Of a stretch of DNA of 64,000 nucleotides, positions 28,985-33,220 are shown piece after piece. The notes under the pieces are model-generated. The model was given only the letters and a program-made list of their open reading frames with translations, ran no database searches and was not told the origin of the DNA. Source of the stretch: Escherichia coli. Lineage in GTDB: Bacteria > Pseudomonadota > Gammaproteobacteria > Enterobacterales > Enterobacteriaceae. A program made the position numbers and the translations under genes. The stretch lies in the NCBI RefSeq assembly GCF_024502345.1, contig NZ_JALDNN010000001.1. One strand, 5' to 3'. Each line of letters begins with the position of its first letter. The first letter of the stretch is position 1.

Positions 28985-29095
28985 GCGTAAGATTGCCTGA
29001 TGCGCTGCGCTTATCAGGCCTACCAATAAACTTCAATATATTGAATTTGCATGACTTTGTAGGCCTGATAAGGCGTTCACGCCGCATCCGGCATG
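28985..29095. repeat. REP/BIME palindromic element
   Basis: gcctgatgcgctgcgcttatcaggcctac ... gtaggcctgataaggcgttcacgccgcatccggca between fdhE and yiiF. Confidence 0.7.
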
Positions 29096-29142
29096 AACAA
29101 CGCGCACGTTGTCAGCAATCTGATTGACATCATTTTTTCCCA

Positions 29143-29361
29143 TTACCATTCCTCGCGCAGCTTACGCTGATATTCGACACCATCTTCCTCACACCCTTGC
29201 CAGATGCCAGGAACACTGGTTCTTGCTGTTTGCGATTGATTTATCAGGTATTGATCTACCGCTTCCCTTAATAGGTCCGCACGAGGAAGATTACGCTGCA
29301 CCTCGAGATCATCAAGTTGCTTAATCACCTCATTCGATAAATCGAGTAAAATTCTGCCCAT
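29143..29361 (-). CDS. yiiF: Ribbon-helix-helix (CopG-like) small DNA-binding protein, 72 aa
   Basis: ORF 29143..29385; recognised protein starts [39 protein letters not shown] (RHH fold signature). Confidence 0.75.
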
Positions 29362-29477
29362 ATCTATACCTACCAGAGAGTTCATAAATATCTCGCCAAT
29401 ATCATTTTTGAATCTATGGAGAGAAAAGTACCCTTGTCGAATCTTTAAAGAAAGCTCATTTACGAATCATTTTTTAT

Positions 29478-29499
29478 TTTTGCGAGGCGTTTTCCAGAT
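29478..29499. repeat. Copy A of a conserved ~22-bp element (tttttgcgaggcgttttccaga), about 115 bp upstream of yiiF
   Basis: Identical 22-mer also at 29927-29948; near-identical at 31151-31171. Copies A and B additionally share gttgcagtt 13 bp further on. Confidence 0.85.
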
Positions 29500-29604
29500 A
29501 TGATGTAACAGTTGCAGTTATTATAAGTTCAAGTAAAACAACCTTGTATTAATACCAGAATAAGGGCATCTGGTTTTTTATATTCAAGAATAAAAAAATT
29601 TTTG

Positions 29605-29823
29605 TCATTCCTTATGATCCTTACACTGATCATAAACACCTACTGTCTCACCCCTTTGCCTGCCTCTCTTTGCTTTACGCACCGGAAATTGCTGCCGCTC
29701 CAGATATTGCTCAACCGCTTCGCGTAAAATTGCAGATCGTGAAACCTTACGCCAGCCCCGAAGCTTGTTCAGCCGTTTAATTGCCTCTTCTGATAAATGA
29801 AGAAAAACCGTATTCATCGCCAT
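29605..29823 (-). CDS. yiiE: Ribbon-helix-helix (CopG-like) small DNA-binding protein, paralog of YiiF, 72 aa
   Basis: ORF 29605..29850; recognised protein starts MAMNTVFLHLSEEAIKRLNKLRGWRKVSRSAILREAVEQYL. Confidence 0.75.
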   Translation of the reverse strand: MAMNTVFLHLSEEAIKRLNKLRGWRKVSRSAILREAVEQYLERQQFPVRKAKRGRQRGETVGVYDQCKDHKE

Positions 29824-29926
29824 TACCACCACCTTACATATATTACTCATTAATGTATGTGCGAAAATTACGCCGGAAAATCATTTAAAAAAAGCGGATT
29901 TTTGCATGTCGTTTTGTTTTTGCGAG

Positions 29927-29948
29927 GCGTTTTCCAGAAATAATAAGA
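29927..29948. repeat. Copy B of the conserved 22-bp element, about 105 bp upstream of yiiE
   Basis: Exact 22/22 match to copy A. Confidence 0.85.
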
Positions 29949-30252
29949 GCGTTGCAGTTGTTTCATTTATTACTCAAAAATGGTTTAGTTATCGCCCAGG
30001 ATGAGTTATGGATGCTATGAATATATTATATTCAGGGATGTTTATTTTTTGATTGGATCTTTATTTGCATAATCTGAATGGTGTACCCGAAAAATGTCAG
30101 CATCCTAACAGCACCCGGATTTAAGGTGAAATTAATCATCCATCACAGACCGGTCAGTACTGCCACCAACCGGTCTTTACTTGTTCATCGTTATAATTTT
30201 GTTGGTAACAGTTCGGGAAACAAGGAATTCCTTCCGGAACCCCCCGGTATCA

Positions 30253-30342
30253 TCCGATAGCATTGACGTCAATCATCAGCGCGACGATGAGTTTTTTTAA
30301 TCGCATCATAGGGTGGCGACGTTCAGCACGATTACGGGTCAT
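30253..30342 (-). CDS. Candidate small ORF, 29 aa (MTRNRAERRHPMMRLKKLIVALMIDVNAIG), unknown function
   Basis: ATG preceded by AGGAG at 8-nt spacing (plus-strand ctcct 30351-30355); the ORF itself is below the ORF-track length cut-off. No homology recognised; may be spurious. Confidence 0.2.
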
Positions 30343-30427
30343 AGCAAAACTCCTGGGCAGGCGACCACTATGCCGCTTTCACAGGAGTTCTGAATGCTAG
30401 TGCTTTCTGTATGGCATAACCATGCCT

Positions 30428-30718
30428 CTAACGGTTAAGTGCTTGCAGCACATGTTGCGGATCATTGGCAATCGCTCGCAGCAAAGCCTTTGCAGGCCCG
30501 GTCGGTGAACGTCGCCCCTGCTCCCAGTTACGCAACGTGTCTACGCTTACAGAAATAAGATCGGCAAATTTAGATTGTGACAACCCTGAAGCGCGGCGTA
30601 TTTCTTTGATTTTCATAGCATCAACTTCAAAAGTCCGCGAAGGCTGTCGCGTTCCTTCAATAATTTCATTCATCTGGGCCATGCTGTGAGTCAACCGCTC
30701 AAAAAGTGCCTTATCCAT
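30428..30718 (-). CDS. XRE-family helix-turn-helix antitoxin (HigA/NadS-like), 96 aa
   Basis: ORF MDKALFERLTHSMAQMNEIIEGTRQPSRTFEVDAMKIKEIRRASGLSQSKFADLISVSVDTLRNWEQGRR...; HTH motif; ATG immediately abuts the stop of the upstream toxin-like ORF. Confidence 0.75.
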   Translation of the reverse strand: MDKALFERLTHSMAQMNEIIEGTRQPSRTFEVDAMKIKEIRRASGLSQSKFADLISVSVDTLRNWEQGRRSPTGPAKALLRAIANDPQHVLQALNR

Positions 30719-31030
30719 TTACCACCTCGTATTTAACAACCGGAGCATTGCTTTTCCCAGGGGAGACAGATCATCTTTAATACCCTTACGATAAATAAGC
30801 AGTAATCTGATCTCATAATGTTTAACCTGATGAAAGTAAATAACCCTGACACCAGCACGTTTCCCCTTTCCTCCTGACACCCATCGAACCTTTCTTAACC
30901 CACCAGTTTCAGGTATTACCTCACCATAGTCAGGATTCAAGGCTAGGAAAAACTGAAAACGACGGAATTCATCGTCGTTCAGCAGTTTTTGAACATCTTC
31001 AGTAAAAATTTCCGTTTCGATGAAGGGTAT
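30719..31030 (-). CDS. RelE/HigB-superfamily toxin-like gene (DUF1044 addiction-module killer type) lacking a canonical start codon; possibly inactive
   Basis: Frame open from stop at 31073-31075 down to 30719: ...IVIPFIETEIFTEDVQKLLNDDEFRRFQFFLALNPDYGEVIPETGGLRKVRWVSGGKGKRAGVRVIYFHQVKHYEIRLLLIYRKGIKDDLSPLGKAMLRLLNTRW. No ATG/GTG upstream of the TTG at 30940; the position where a start is expected from the family's typical N-terminus (M-x-FIET) is ATA (31028-31030). Confidence 0.55.
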   Translation of the reverse strand: MPFIETEIFTEDVQKLLNDDEFRRFQFFLALNPDYGEVIPETGGLRKVRWVSGGKGKRAGVRVIYFHQVKHYEIRLLLIYRKGIKDDLSPLGKAMLRLLNTRW

Positions 31031-31150
31031 AACTATACGCCATTGGCTTAGAGTAACAATCCTTTTTGTACGTCATTGACGTACCCTTGAAACCACTAGC
31101 TTACTGATAGTGCTCCAGCAAAACCCCGTCTCTGCCGGGTTTGTCTTTAC

Positions 31151-31171
31151 TTTTGCGAGGCGCTTTCCAGA
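31151..31171. repeat. Copy C of the conserved element (ttttgcgaggcgctttccaga), between the toxin-like gene and the esterase gene
   Basis: 20/21 match to copies A/B; lies about 80-120 bp upstream of the toxin-like reading frame on the minus strand and 12 bp upstream of a GTG on the plus strand. Confidence 0.8.
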
Positions 31172-31246
31172 TTTTCCACATCCGTGAATTTCCCTGTATC
31201 CATCCAGCAGAAACGAGTGTATAAAACTGTACATTCATACAGCAAG

Positions 31247-32167
31247 ATGAGTTCTACTATGGCACTGGAAAAAGGAATTGCAGAGTTAGTCGAAGAGTTT
31301 ATCGCTGCGGGTCGCCCCTCATCGCGTCAACAAAGTATTGCACAGCGCAGGGAGGGCTATATCGCCAGCGCTGTCCTTGCGGGTGAGACAGAAACGCGGG
31401 TAGATATTCAGACTATCGAACTTGAAGGGATGACCTTACGAATAGTGTCACCGCTGAATGCCCCGACATTACTCCCGACGATAATTTATTACTACGGTGG
31501 CTGTTTTGTTAGCGGCGGGTTCGCAACTCACGACAACCAGCTGCGCCAGTTAGCCTATTACGGGCAATGTCGTGTTATTGCCGTCCAGTATCGGCTGGCA
31601 CCGGAACATACTTTCCCCGCCGCCCATGATGATGCGCAACGAGGTGCAGAATTAGTCTTGCAACACGCCGAACGACTTGGCGTTGATAAACAGCGGATAA
31701 CTCTTGCCGGTGACAGTGCGGGCGGACATCTGGCGCTGGTAACTGCTTTGCGATTAAAGCGTGCTGGCGAGTGGCAACCTGCACAACTCATATTAATTTA
31801 TCCCATGCTTGATGCGACTGCGCATTTCGAAAGCTATATCCGCAATGGTCACGATTACATCATCACACGCGATACTCTACTGAGCGGCTTTGAGATGTAC
31901 CTACCAGATATTGATCGCAAGCATCCTGAAGCCAGTCCTCTATGGCGAGATGATTTTAATGGCTTGCCGCCTGTACATATCATTACCGCTGAATACGACC
32001 CACTTTGCGATGAAGGTGAAGCGTTGTATCACCGCATGACCGAGCAAGGAGTGCAATGTACCTGCCAACGCTACCCTGGCGTTATCCACGGATTTTTTCA
32101 GTTAGGTGGTATCAGCGAGGCCGCGCGATCGGCACTACGGGATGTTGCCTGGAGAGCGGGAAGGTAA
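31247..32167 (+). CDS. Alpha/beta-hydrolase, family IV (HSL/Aes-like) esterase, about 307 aa
   Basis: ORF 31184..32167; oxyanion-hole region YYYGGCF, nucleophile elbow GDSAGG, DPLCDEG and C-terminal HGFF catalytic-His motif. Start chosen at first ATG (31247); GTG at 31184 also possible. Confidence 0.75.
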   Translation: MSSTMALEKGIAELVEEFIAAGRPSSRQQSIAQRREGYIASAVLAGETETRVDIQTIELEGMTLRIVSPLNAPTLLPTIIYYYGGCFVSGGFATHDNQLRQLAYYGQCRVIAVQYRLAPEHTFPAAHDDAQRGAELVLQHAERLGVDKQRITLAGDSAGGHLALVTALRLKRAGEWQPAQLILIYPMLDATAHFESYIRNGHDYIITRDTLLSGFEMYLPDIDRKHPEASPLWRDDFNGLPPVHIITAEYDPLCDEGEALYHRMTEQGVQCTCQRYPGVIHGFFQLGGISEAARSALRDVAWRAGR

Positions 32168-32182
32168 CTTCGGACCTGGGCC

Positions 32183-32215
32183 CTGAAAAGGTTTTCAGAT
32201 TGAAAACCTTTTCAG
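32183..32215. terminator. Perfect 14-bp-stem hairpin between convergent esterase gene and yiiD
   Basis: ctgaaaaggttttc-agatt-gaaaaccttttcag, exact inverted repeat, U-rich on both strands. Confidence 0.6.
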
Positions 32216-32230
32216 TCAAGTAAAACGCCC

Positions 32231-33220
32231 CTACTCTTCTTCGTTCCCGCCCTCTTCATACGGGCCAAATGGCTTCGCGGGCAGAACGATATACGTGCCT
32301 TCAAACACTGCACCCGGCGTCTCGTCGCCAAAGATTTCAACTTGCATCTGCACCCGTGCTTTTCGTCCGCGCGCCAGACGGTCGAGATCGCCGCTTAAGG
32401 CACCAAGGTCGGCTACCGCATGGGGTTTACCGCTAATCGGTTTGCTGTAGCGGATATGCGCATCCGCCAGAATAATCGTTCCGCCGAGGTGGCGTTCACG
32501 CAGCATCAGCCAGATAAGCCCCCAACCGGTGAGCGTCGCCAGCGAGAATAAACTCCCGGCAAACAGCGTATGGTGCGGATTCTGATTGCCGGTTTCCGGC
32601 ATGGTGGTGATAAATTTTTGCCCGGTATATTGTTGAATACGCACGCCCATTTTTTCACTAAGCGGGATATGTTCGTACCACGCCTGTTGCAGCTGCGCGC
32701 ACCAGTCGCCGCGATGCAAAATATCATCCAGAGTGGCGACGGGCTTAATCATCAAAAAATGGCGAATCGGCGTGGTGGTTGGCGTGGTGATTTCTCCCTG
32801 ATTAACAAACCCCAGCTTGGCGAAAAACTCCACCGCGTCTTCACGGGCGCTACAGGTCACGCGCTTAACGCCTTCCTGACGCGCCACCGACTCTAGGGTC
32901 ATCGCCATCAGCGTTCCTAACCCTTTGTCCTGCACGTCCGGGTGAACGGCCATAAAGCGAATGGACGCTTCATTGTCGGCATTAATATACAGTCGGCCTA
33001 CCGCCACCAGATTACCCTGCTCGTCGACGACCATCTGGTGATGCGCCATCGCATCCCACGCGTCGCGTTCCGAACCTTTTGGTTGATGCAGGGGCTTACG
33101 CAACATTTCCCAGCGAAACTGATAGTAACGCTCTAATTCTTCTTCTGTTTGTGGAACCCGAAGGTGATACATAGCGATACTCTCTCTTGTTTCCCGTGAC
33201 AACCCTGGAAGCTGGCTCAT
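32231..33220 (-). CDS. yiiD: GNAT acetyltransferase / thioesterase fusion protein YiiD (FabY), 329 aa
   Basis: [49 protein letters not shown]... Confidence 0.9.

What the first reader, a model, noticed from the sequence alone, without database searches (positions are those of the whole stretch)
30428..31075. Toxin-antitoxin pair whose toxin has no canonical start codon
A RelE/HigB-superfamily toxin-like frame (GGLRKVRW...GVRVIYF...LLLIYRKGIKDDL) is followed, with the stop abutting the ATG, by an XRE-HTH antitoxin, which is the toxin-first order typical of HigBA-like modules. The toxin frame is open for 117 codons but contains no ATG or GTG before a TTG at codon 45, and the codon where family members start (M-x-FIET) is ATA. 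That looks like a single G-to-A change killing the toxin start while the antitoxin stays intact, giving either an orphan antitoxin/regulator or a toxin made at low level from a non-canonical start. I do not recall this pair in K-12.
Basis: partly seen in the sequence, partly recalled or inferred. Interest (0 to 1): 0.6.

Follow-up and report, generated by a model that had tools for sequence, protein, structure and literature searches.

The report
HigB2 toxin gene with lost start codon
This E. coli strain carries a known chromosomal toxin-antitoxin pair whose toxin gene has lost its ATG start (now ATA) while the antitoxin/repressor gene is intact, which is an ordinary early step of toxin-gene decay.

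Summary
On the minus strand there is a 117-codon open frame (31072-30722). It has ATA at codon 15 (31030) and no ATG or GTG before a TTG at codon 45. A 96-aa XRE-HTH gene (30718-30428) follows, with its ATG abutting the toxin stop.

The toxin is a homolog of Vibrio cholerae HigB-2 (E 1e-18), and the antitoxin is a NadS/HigA-2-type protein. The pair sits in the fabY(yiiD)-fdhE islet found in 2636 of 5426 complete E. coli genomes, and it is syntenic in four other enterobacterial genera. It has been catalogued as a predicted relE-1/yiaG-1 module.

ATA is derived. 2532 E. coli genomes and all four other genera have ATG at that codon, and the family is 103 aa long (M-[LI]-F-I-E-T). The ATA allele is real: at least three independent assemblies carry it. 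It arose separately in eight other genomes. Frameshifts inactivate the toxin in further lineages.

In the window lineage two substitutions, L2P and E92G, hit columns that are conserved in 93 of 93 homologs. The antitoxin keeps its own strong ribosome-binding site, and a HigA2-type operator lies upstream.

The most likely reading is a silenced toxin pseudogene beside a retained antitoxin/autorepressor. Trace initiation from AUA (about 1-2% of AUG) is not excluded. This is ordinary and of low interest.

The parts
31068..31084 (-). Candidate operator: perfect palindrome GTACGTCA-a-TGACGTAC (GTACG-N7-CGTAC). The in-frame upstream stop TGA (31075-31073) lies inside it.
   Evidence: It occurs once in the 64-kb window, against 0.01 expected. 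The TACG.CA.TG.CGTA core is invariant across E. coli, Pseudocitrobacter, Salmonella, Enterobacter and Cronobacter. Its geometry matches the footprinted V. cholerae HigA2 operator TGTACGC-N5-GCGTACA (PMC11006873).
31065..31092 (-). Inferred operon promoter: -35 TTTCAA (31092-31087), 16-nt spacer filled by the operator, -10 TACAAA (31070-31065).
   Evidence: Inference only. This placement mirrors V. cholerae, where the operator starts after the -35 element and extends over the -10 element. The T-A of the -10 is invariant in the five-genus alignment. The hexamers are too weak for the consensus scan to call.
31034..31052 (-). Conserved block TCTAAGC-CAATG-GCGTATA just upstream of the start. It may be a second, imperfect operator or a translation-initiation region.
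   Evidence: T.AGC.A.TGGCGTA is invariant across five genera. GCGTATA matches the V. cholerae half-site GCGTACA at 6 of 7 positions. Its function is inferred.
31032..31059 (-). Consensus-scan promoter-like site TTGTTA-16-TATAGT (TATAAT in other E. coli), ending 1 nt before the start codon. Probably not the operon promoter.
   Evidence: One search found 1 site against 1.3 expected. The -10 element is not conserved in Salmonella or Cronobacter. A transcript from this site would lack the start codon.
31028..31030 (-). ATA at the position of the family's ATG start codon (derived G-to-A change).
   Evidence: The ATG allele 30-mer is in 2532 E. coli genomes and the ATA allele 30-mer in 8.
30719..31030 (-). 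higB2-like toxin ORF: 103 codons counted from ATA, plus the TAA stop. The catalytic residues are intact but the canonical start is lost.
   Evidence: E about 1e-18 to V. cholerae HigB-2. Equivalents of R51/R64/Y82/K84 are present as R49/R62/Y80/K82. L2P and E92G fall in columns conserved in 93 of 93 homologs. The window frame has no Pfam or NCBIfam hit.
30948..30990 (-). Strong A-tract/stem/U-tract hairpin inside the 5' part of the toxin ORF (terminator-like).
   Evidence: -17.2 kcal/mol, z -6.0 in the window, against -11.0 (z -1.45) in the common E. coli allele. It is strengthened by the substitutions that cause T18N and S23R. Its function is unknown.
30723..30728 (-). Shine-Dalgarno sequence GAGGTG for the antitoxin, inside the last codons of the toxin ORF.
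   Evidence: Read directly from ...ACGAGGTGGTAAATG. It implies that antitoxin translation does not depend on toxin translation.
30428..30718 (-). nadS/higA2-like antitoxin and autorepressor (96 aa): an N-terminal segment of about 30 aa plus a C-terminal XRE-HTH domain.
   Evidence: NF041265 NadS, 60.7 bits against a cutoff of 60. E 1.8e-8 to V. cholerae HigA-2. Orthologs carry PF13560/PF01381. The DNA is identical to the S51 allele.

Best explanation
This is a chromosomal HigB2/HigA2-type (RelE-superfamily toxin with a NadS-family XRE-HTH antitoxin) type II toxin-antitoxin operon in the fabY(yiiD)-fdhE islet of E. coli. In this strain's lineage the toxin's ATG has mutated to ATA.

Shown:
- The homology of both genes.
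- The family start position.
- The derived state of ATA.
- The presence of the allele in several independent assemblies.
- The intact antitoxin with its own GAGGTG ribosome-binding site.
- A conserved GTACG-N7-CGTAC palindrome upstream.

Inferred:
- With no canonical start and no recognisable Shine-Dalgarno sequence in front of it, the toxin is made at a negligible level or not at all, and it has begun to decay (L2P, E92G).
- The operon is still transcribed from a promoter that overlaps the palindrome.
- NadS/HigA2 is translated independently, binds the palindrome as a dimer and represses its own promoter.
- The locus therefore now acts as an orphan antitoxin/autoregulator next to a toxin pseudogene. 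If made, the toxin would be a ribosome-dependent mRNA endonuclease like V. cholerae HigB2.
For: Homology. Toxin: HigB-2 at E about 1e-18. Antitoxin: NadS equivalog and HigA-2 at E 1.8e-8.

Family start. 103 of the 134 retrieved proteins are 103 aa long, and 91 of 93 non-E. coli homologs begin MLFIET or MIFIET.

ATG is ancestral. It is present in four other genera at the syntenic locus and in 2532 of 2636 E. coli carriers.

The ATA allele is real. It is in assemblies L008, L009 and L010, and its product is recorded on 35 contigs.

Toxin knock-outs recur while nadS stays annotated intact. A separate ATA allele occurs in 8 genomes; it differs from the window at -3 and +5 around the mutated base. 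A +G frameshift occurs in 133 genomes. Truncated forms are recorded from SE15 and 536.

Signs of decay. L2P and E92G hit columns that are L/I/V and E in 93 of 93 homologs. The window frame is the only one of 16 aligned members with no PF06296 match. Against S51 there are 5 nonsynonymous and 1 synonymous differences in the toxin and 0 differences in the antitoxin.

AUA start strength. AUA initiates at about 1-2% (range 0.02-3%) of AUG in E. coli reporters (bioRxiv 10.1101/063800).

Operator. The palindrome is unique in the window, conserved across genera, and has the same geometry as the footprinted V. cholerae HigA2 operator.

Precedent. Toxin pseudogenes beside orphan antitoxins are already reported in E. 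coli (PMC7232551).
Against: The ORF is still open over all 103 codons, and all four catalytic residues are intact. AUA is a measurable near-cognate start. PGAP and GenBank annotate the ATA-start CDS as an intact protein. The excess of substitutions in the toxin over the antitoxin is statistically weak: 6 versus 0 on about 300 bp each, against a background divergence of about 1.1%. No expression, toxicity or DNA-binding data exist for this locus in E. coli. The promoter assignment is inferred.
Confidence: 0.7

Rival explanations
1. Attenuated but live module. The AUA codon serves as a weak start, so HigB2 is still made at roughly 1% of the normal rate. The pair remains a functional, dosage-reduced toxin-antitoxin system kept by selection.
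For: AUA initiates at 0.02-3% of AUG in E. coli. The ORF is open and the catalytic residues are intact. The allele persists across a lineage with internal diversity: L008 differs from the window at 7 of 721 sites. The same G-to-A change arose twice.
Against: There is no recognisable Shine-Dalgarno sequence before the start, so initiation was probably already weak and dependent on AUG (sequence). L2P and E92G alter positions conserved in 93 of 93 homologs. Frameshift alleles in 133 or more genomes show that the toxin is dispensable. The absence of nonsynonymous differences between L008 and the window is an artefact of retrieving loci by exact protein sequence. A recurrent G-to-A transition in a 3-base target is also expected for simple loss of function.
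Confidence: 0.22
2. The toxin is made from another start: the TTG at codon 45 (a 73-aa product), an upstream start as in the 122-aa homologs, or the out-of-frame upstream ATG at 31043 followed by a frameshift.
For: TTG at 30940 opens a 73-aa ORF that still contains the beta-sheet core and the catalytic residues. Eight homologs are annotated at 122 aa. [AG]TG GCG is conserved upstream in all five genera.
Against: No homolog starts at the TTG-equivalent position. The 74-84-aa records are labelled partial. There is no Shine-Dalgarno sequence before the TTG, and that product would lack the N-terminal 44 residues that align with the solved V. cholerae HigB2 structure. In the window the upstream frame is closed by TGA at 31075, inside the operator. 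The 122-aa calls begin MYVNGV, which is the operator palindrome itself read as codons. The upstream ATG is in a different frame relative to the toxin start in Enterobacter, which has a 1-nt insertion, so no conserved peptide or frameshift site exists.
Confidence: 0.03
3. Artefact: the ATA is a sequencing or assembly error, or the frame is a chance ORF.
For: None found.
Against: The same ATA CCC sequence is in three separately deposited assemblies, and the product is recorded on 35 contigs. Homology to HigB-2 is at E 1e-18.
Confidence: 0.01

Closest known systems
Vibrio cholerae HigB2-HigA2 (higBA-2; PDB 5JA8/5JA9/5JAA; operator complex described in PMC11006873)
   Same: Toxin-first operon. The toxin is 41% identical, with all four catalytic residues (R51, R64, Y82, K84) conserved. 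The antitoxin has a C-terminal XRE-HTH domain (E 1.8e-8) preceded by an N-terminal segment of about 30 residues. The DNA-contact residues N72 and R77 are conserved as N64 and R69. The upstream palindrome has the same GTACG-N7-CGTAC geometry.
   Different: The window toxin starts with ATA rather than ATG. It is a chromosomal core-islet locus, not a superintegron cassette. The HigA2 contact residues R68 and E71 are D60 and R63 here, and the operator flanks differ. A second conserved half-site-like block lies next to the start. Nothing has been tested experimentally in E. coli.
relE-1/yiaG-1 (TA27, NRG857_19405/19410) of AIEC NRG857c and UPEC CFT073
   Same: Same locus by gene sizes (312 nt and 291 nt), by gene order and by position between yiiD (fabY) and fdhE. 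It is absent from K-12 and HS (PMC7232551). This is the ATG-bearing form, the form that 2532 complete genomes carry.
   Different: The window allele has ATA in place of ATG plus five amino-acid changes. The published description is a bioinformatic prediction only.
Decayed chromosomal toxin-antitoxin loci with orphan antitoxins in E. coli (for example the parE-1 pseudogene with higA in CFT073, and orphan higA in NRG857c/CFT073)
   Same: The toxin is inactivated while the HTH antitoxin gene is retained. At this very locus there are also a +G frameshift allele in 133 genomes and truncated forms in SE15 and 536.
   Different: Here the lesion is a start-codon point mutation, which leaves the ORF open. 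Annotation pipelines therefore still call it an intact protein.

Membership tests
HigB-2 / RelE-superfamily toxin (Pfam PF06296, former DUF1044) | Significant sequence similarity to characterised HigB-2 over the whole domain | tested here: met
   phmmer E 8e-19 to 2e-18, residues 3-96 aligned to V. cholerae HigB-2 chains; 41% identity in alignment A2.
HigB-2 / RelE-superfamily toxin (Pfam PF06296, former DUF1044) | Match to the Pfam PF06296 profile | tested here: not met
   The window frame has no Pfam hit even at E<=10. By contrast, 13 of 16 aligned relatives match at E<=0.001 and 15 of 16 at E<=0.1. The profile is weak for this subfamily, and the window allele is the only member that fails.
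HigB-2 / RelE-superfamily toxin (Pfam PF06296, former DUF1044) | Catalytic residues equivalent to V. cholerae HigB2 R51, R64, Y82, K84 | tested here: met
   R49, R62, Y80 and K82 are present in the window frame and in 92-93 of 93 homologs.
HigB-2 / RelE-superfamily toxin (Pfam PF06296, former DUF1044) | A translatable gene with a canonical start at the family N-terminus (M-[LI]-F-I-E-T) | tested here: not met
   ATA at 31030; there is no ATG, GTG or TTG before codon 45. Homologs have ATG there.
HigB-2 / RelE-superfamily toxin (Pfam PF06296, former DUF1044) | Ribosome-dependent mRNA cleavage and growth inhibition | not testable with these tools
   Needs expression and in vitro translation assays.
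HigA-2 / NadS-family antitoxin (NCBIfam NF041265; XRE-HTH) | Score above the curated NadS equivalog cutoff | tested here: met
   60.7 bits against a cutoff of 60, so it passes only barely. RefSeq annotates the identical DNA in S51 as nadS.
HigA-2 / NadS-family antitoxin (NCBIfam NF041265; XRE-HTH) | C-terminal XRE-type HTH domain similar to V. cholerae HigA2 | tested here: met
   E 1.8e-8 to 1.8e-7, residues 31-89. Orthologs carry PF13560/PF01381.
HigA-2 / NadS-family antitoxin (NCBIfam NF041265; XRE-HTH) | N-terminal disordered segment that folds onto the toxin and neutralises it | not testable with these tools
   A segment of about 30 residues precedes the HTH, as in V. cholerae HigA2, but it shows no alignable similarity. 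Binding was not tested.
HigA-2 / NadS-family antitoxin (NCBIfam NF041265; XRE-HTH) | Palindromic operator overlapping the operon promoter | tested here: met
   GTACGTCAaTGACGTAC at 31068-31084 is unique in the window, conserved in five genera, and has the same spacing as TGTACGC-N5-GCGTACA. Binding itself was not tested.
Functional type II toxin-antitoxin module | Adjacent co-oriented toxin and antitoxin genes in one operon | tested here: met
   TAA (30721-30719) abuts ATG (30718). Both genes are on the minus strand.
Functional type II toxin-antitoxin module | The toxin is expressed and toxic, and is neutralised by the cognate antitoxin | not testable with these tools
   The loss of the start codon and the L2P/E92G changes argue against it, but no experiment is available.

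The most novel reading that the evidence does not exclude
The ATG-to-ATA change is not decay but dosage tuning. It arose at least twice independently in E. coli at the same base. It leaves a catalytically intact HigB2 made at about 1% of the normal rate from AUA. In the window lineage, two amino-acid-changing substitutions that also build a strong terminator-like hairpin (30948-30990) inside the toxin ORF may retune transcription into nadS at the same time.
Probability: 0.1. Interest if true: 0.45.

Novelty: already known. Interest (0 to 1): 0.15.

Why it matters
The finding has little wider consequence. It records one more way that chromosomal toxin-antitoxin loci decay: a start-codon point mutation that leaves the antitoxin in place.

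Its main use is as a caution for annotation. The ORF stays open, so PGAP and GenBank list the ATA-start frame as an intact "RelE/ParE family toxin" or "hypothetical protein". Protein-level surveys of toxin-antitoxin repertoires would therefore count this strain as a toxin carrier.

The comparative work also gives a usable regulatory map for an uncharacterised module present in about half of E. coli: an operator with V. cholerae HigA2 geometry and an independent ribosome-binding site for the antitoxin.

Tried and rejected
- Pfam and NCBIfam scans of the toxin frame returned nothing. Family assignment therefore rests on similarity to PDB HigB-2 sequences and on relatives that do match PF06296.
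- Literature searches for "NadS" with antitoxin or HigA found no description of the family name. The only relevant item was a PIRT-seq note that a K-12 nadS gene is expressed.
- The TTGTTA-16-TATAGT promoter hit was rejected as the operon promoter. It is no better than chance (1 found, 1.3 expected), its -10 is not conserved in Salmonella or Cronobacter, and its transcript would start after the start codon.
- A conserved upstream ATG/GTG (31043) suggested a small upstream ORF or a frameshift route. This was rejected because its frame relative to the toxin start differs in Enterobacter.
- The TTG at codon 45 and the 122-aa upstream-start forms were rejected as starts.
- The apparent purifying selection on the toxin (0 nonsynonymous, 2 synonymous differences between the window and L008) was discarded. 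L008 was retrieved by exact protein identity, so the result is forced.
- Comparing substitution counts in the toxin and antitoxin against S51 gives only weak statistics, given about 1.1% background divergence.
- The window's phylogroup or sequence type was not determined. The nearest complete E. coli genomes are only 98.9-99.0% identical over 10-12 kb. GenBank does label the exact protein as E. coli.
- An Rfam search of 29000-32500 found no RNA family within the toxin-antitoxin locus.

Full report
**1. What is in the sequence**

The feature lies on the minus strand. After an in-frame TGA (31075-31073) there are 117 sense codons up to a TAA at 30721-30719. The only ATG-like codons before codon 45 are near-cognates: ATT at codon 5, ATA at codons 13 and 15, ATC, ATT and CTG. 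The first canonical start is TTG at codon 45 (30940). The ATG of a 96-aa ORF (30718-30428) directly follows the TAA.

**2. Identity of the two genes**

- The toxin frame matches Vibrio cholerae HigB-2 chains in the PDB at E about 1e-18 over residues 3-96, with 41% identity.
- The four residues shown by mutagenesis to matter for V. cholerae HigB2 activity (R51, R64, Y82, K84; PMC5416850) are present as R49, R62, Y80 and K82. They are essentially invariant in 93 homologs.
- The window frame itself gets no Pfam or NCBIfam hit. Yet 13 of 16 aligned relatives match PF06296 (RelE, former DUF1044) at E<=0.001, and 15 of 16 at E<=0.1. The window frame is the only member that fails.
- The downstream protein passes the NCBIfam NadS equivalog, barely (60.7 bits against a cutoff of 60). 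Its HTH domain matches V. cholerae HigA-2 at E 1.8e-8.

**3. Where the family starts, and which allele is ancestral**

Among the 93 of these that are less than 90% identical to the E. coli form, 91 begin MLFIET or MIFIET.

DNA was fetched for four other genera: Pseudocitrobacter, Salmonella, Enterobacter and Cronobacter. In each the pair lies next to fdhE, and in most also next to the same alpha/beta hydrolase and fabY. All four have ATG at the codon that is ATA in the window.

The counts in 5426 complete E. coli genomes are as follows:

| Class | Genomes |
|---|---|
| Carry the locus | 2636 |
| 30-mer spanning the start with ATG | 2532 |
| Same 30-mer with ATA | 8 |

**4. The allele is real and belongs to a lineage**

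No complete RefSeq E. coli genome carries the window's own allele. The best match over 721 bp is 99.0%. The window as a whole is only 98.9-99.0% identical to the nearest complete genome over 10-12 kb.

The M-initiated translation of the window frame is on record as an E. coli protein (EFN3830514.1 and others) on 35 contigs, the longest 4.74 Mb. Three representative assemblies all read ATA CCC. One of them (GCA_001484475.1) is identical to the window over 721 bp, and another differs at 7 sites. This excludes a sequencing error.

The eight complete genomes with ATA (S51 and relatives) carry the common E. coli sequence at -3 (A, not G) and at +5 (T, not C) around the mutated base. Their ATA is therefore most simply an independent event.

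**5. Other inactivated toxin alleles at this locus**

- A +G frameshift in the GGGG run is present in 133 complete genomes and is flagged "frameshifted" by PGAP.
- Protein records from SE15 (69 aa, frameshifted tail, 70 contigs) and from 536 (ECP_4099, 53 aa) are further truncated forms.
- nadS is annotated intact in every row inspected.

Recurrent loss of the toxin with retention of the antitoxin is the pattern already reported for other E. coli modules (PMC7232551). The same paper lists this very locus as the predicted relE-1/yiaG-1 pair (TA27) of NRG857c. It describes the locus as syntenic in CFT073 and missing from K-12 and HS between yiiD and fdhE.

**6. Signs of decay in the window lineage**

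Against the S51 allele the window has 7 differences in 721 bp. All are in or just before the toxin ORF, and none is in nadS.

- Five change amino acids: L2P, T18N, S23R, Q91L and E92G.
- One is synonymous.
- One lies at -3.

T18N, S23R and Q91L fall in variable columns. Position 2 is L, I or V in 93 of 93 homologs, and position 92 is E in 93 of 93.

This fits relaxed constraint, but the numbers are small. With about 1.1% background divergence, the contrast between toxin and antitoxin is only weakly significant. The absence of nonsynonymous differences between the window and L008 carries no weight, because L008 was retrieved by exact protein identity.

**7. Regulatory anatomy (mostly inferred)**

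A perfect palindrome, GTACGTCA-a-TGACGTAC (31084-31068), occurs once in the window against 0.01 expected. Its core is invariant in five genera. It has the same GTACG-N7-CGTAC spacing as the footprinted V. cholerae HigA2 operator TGTACGC-N5-GCGTACA, which starts after the -35 element and extends over the -10 element (PMC11006873).

Two of the four base-contacting residues of V. cholerae HigA2 are conserved (N72 and R77, here N64 and R69). The other two differ, which matches a shared core with different flanks.

By analogy I place the promoter at TTTCAA-16-TACAAA (31092-31065). A second conserved block, TCTAAGC-CAATG-GCGTATA (31052-31034), sits just before the start and may be a second operator or part of the initiation region.

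There is no recognisable Shine-Dalgarno sequence in front of the toxin start. The antitoxin, in contrast, has GAGGTG four bases before its ATG (30728-30723). It can therefore be translated whether or not the toxin frame is.

**8. Mechanism I commit to**

The operon is still transcribed and autorepressed by NadS/HigA2. The toxin frame is essentially untranslated and is an early-stage pseudogene. The locus now functions as an orphan antitoxin/regulator.

AUA supports initiation at about 1-2% (range 0.02-3%) of AUG in E. coli reporters (bioRxiv 10.1101/063800). A trace of toxin therefore cannot be excluded, and I give that rival about 0.2.

Starts at the TTG, further upstream, or through the out-of-frame upstream ATG were examined and rejected.

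**9. Verdict**

The thing itself is a rare allele of a catalogued, widespread, uncharacterised toxin-antitoxin islet, and it shows a well-known kind of decay. Novelty: already known. Interest: low.

Noticed in passing
window 30948-30990 (minus strand): An A-tract/stem/U-tract hairpin lies inside the toxin ORF: -17.2 kcal/mol with z -6.0 in the window, against -11.0 with z -1.45 in the common E. coli allele. The hairpin is absent in Enterobacter and Pseudocitrobacter. Two of the window allele's amino-acid-changing substitutions (ACC>AAC, also present in AVS0093, and AGT>CGT) complete the stem. Whether it terminates or attenuates transcription into nadS is unknown.
   Followed up: partly
L005 1813-1850 (Salmonella enterica, GCA_020803635.1): At the syntenic Salmonella locus the toxin is intact (103 aa, ATG). 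The antitoxin has what looks like a -1 frameshift in an A-run at about codon 10, leaving an 84-aa ORF that starts at the equivalent of M13 and lacks the start of the presumed toxin-neutralising segment. The toxin protein is listed in about 1000 collection blocks, so this arrangement may be common in Salmonella.
   Followed up: partly
L004 1501-1560 (Pseudocitrobacter), and proteins P0009, P0025, P0037: The 122-aa annotated forms of the toxin begin MYVNGVH..., which is the operator palindrome (ATG TAC GTC AAT GGC GTA C) read as codons. These N-terminal extensions are almost certainly over-extended gene calls.
   Followed up: partly
window 29016-29058 (minus strand) and 29062-29098 (plus strand): There is an Rfam hit to the ES036 (CssrF) sRNA above its gathering score (39.6 against 37.6 bits). 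Next to it is a sub-threshold naRNA4 (CssrE) hit. Both lie below the yiiE ORF (29605-29850); I did not place them relative to yiiF or fdhE.
   Followed up: no
window 29850-30428, compared with L002, L003 and L008: The spacer between nadS and yiiE is polymorphic. Some strains carry about 450 bp more, with hypothetical ORFs of 70 and 92 aa (WP_000197769.1, WP_001306650.1). The window and L009 lack them.
   Followed up: no
L001 and L002, upstream of the alpha/beta hydrolase: In strains S51 and 18KM2445 a transposase gene (frameshifted in S51) and a truncated hypothetical gene sit where fabY-dtd-yihY lie in the window and in AVS0093. The islet border is therefore a site of rearrangement.
   Followed up: no
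E. coli K-12 BW25113 (NZ_CP009273, locus RS26030), not in the window: K-12 lacks this pair, but PGAP annotates a nadS gene there. A PIRT-seq study reports the first evidence that it is expressed (PMC12350097). Its relation to the antitoxin studied here was not examined.
   Followed up: no
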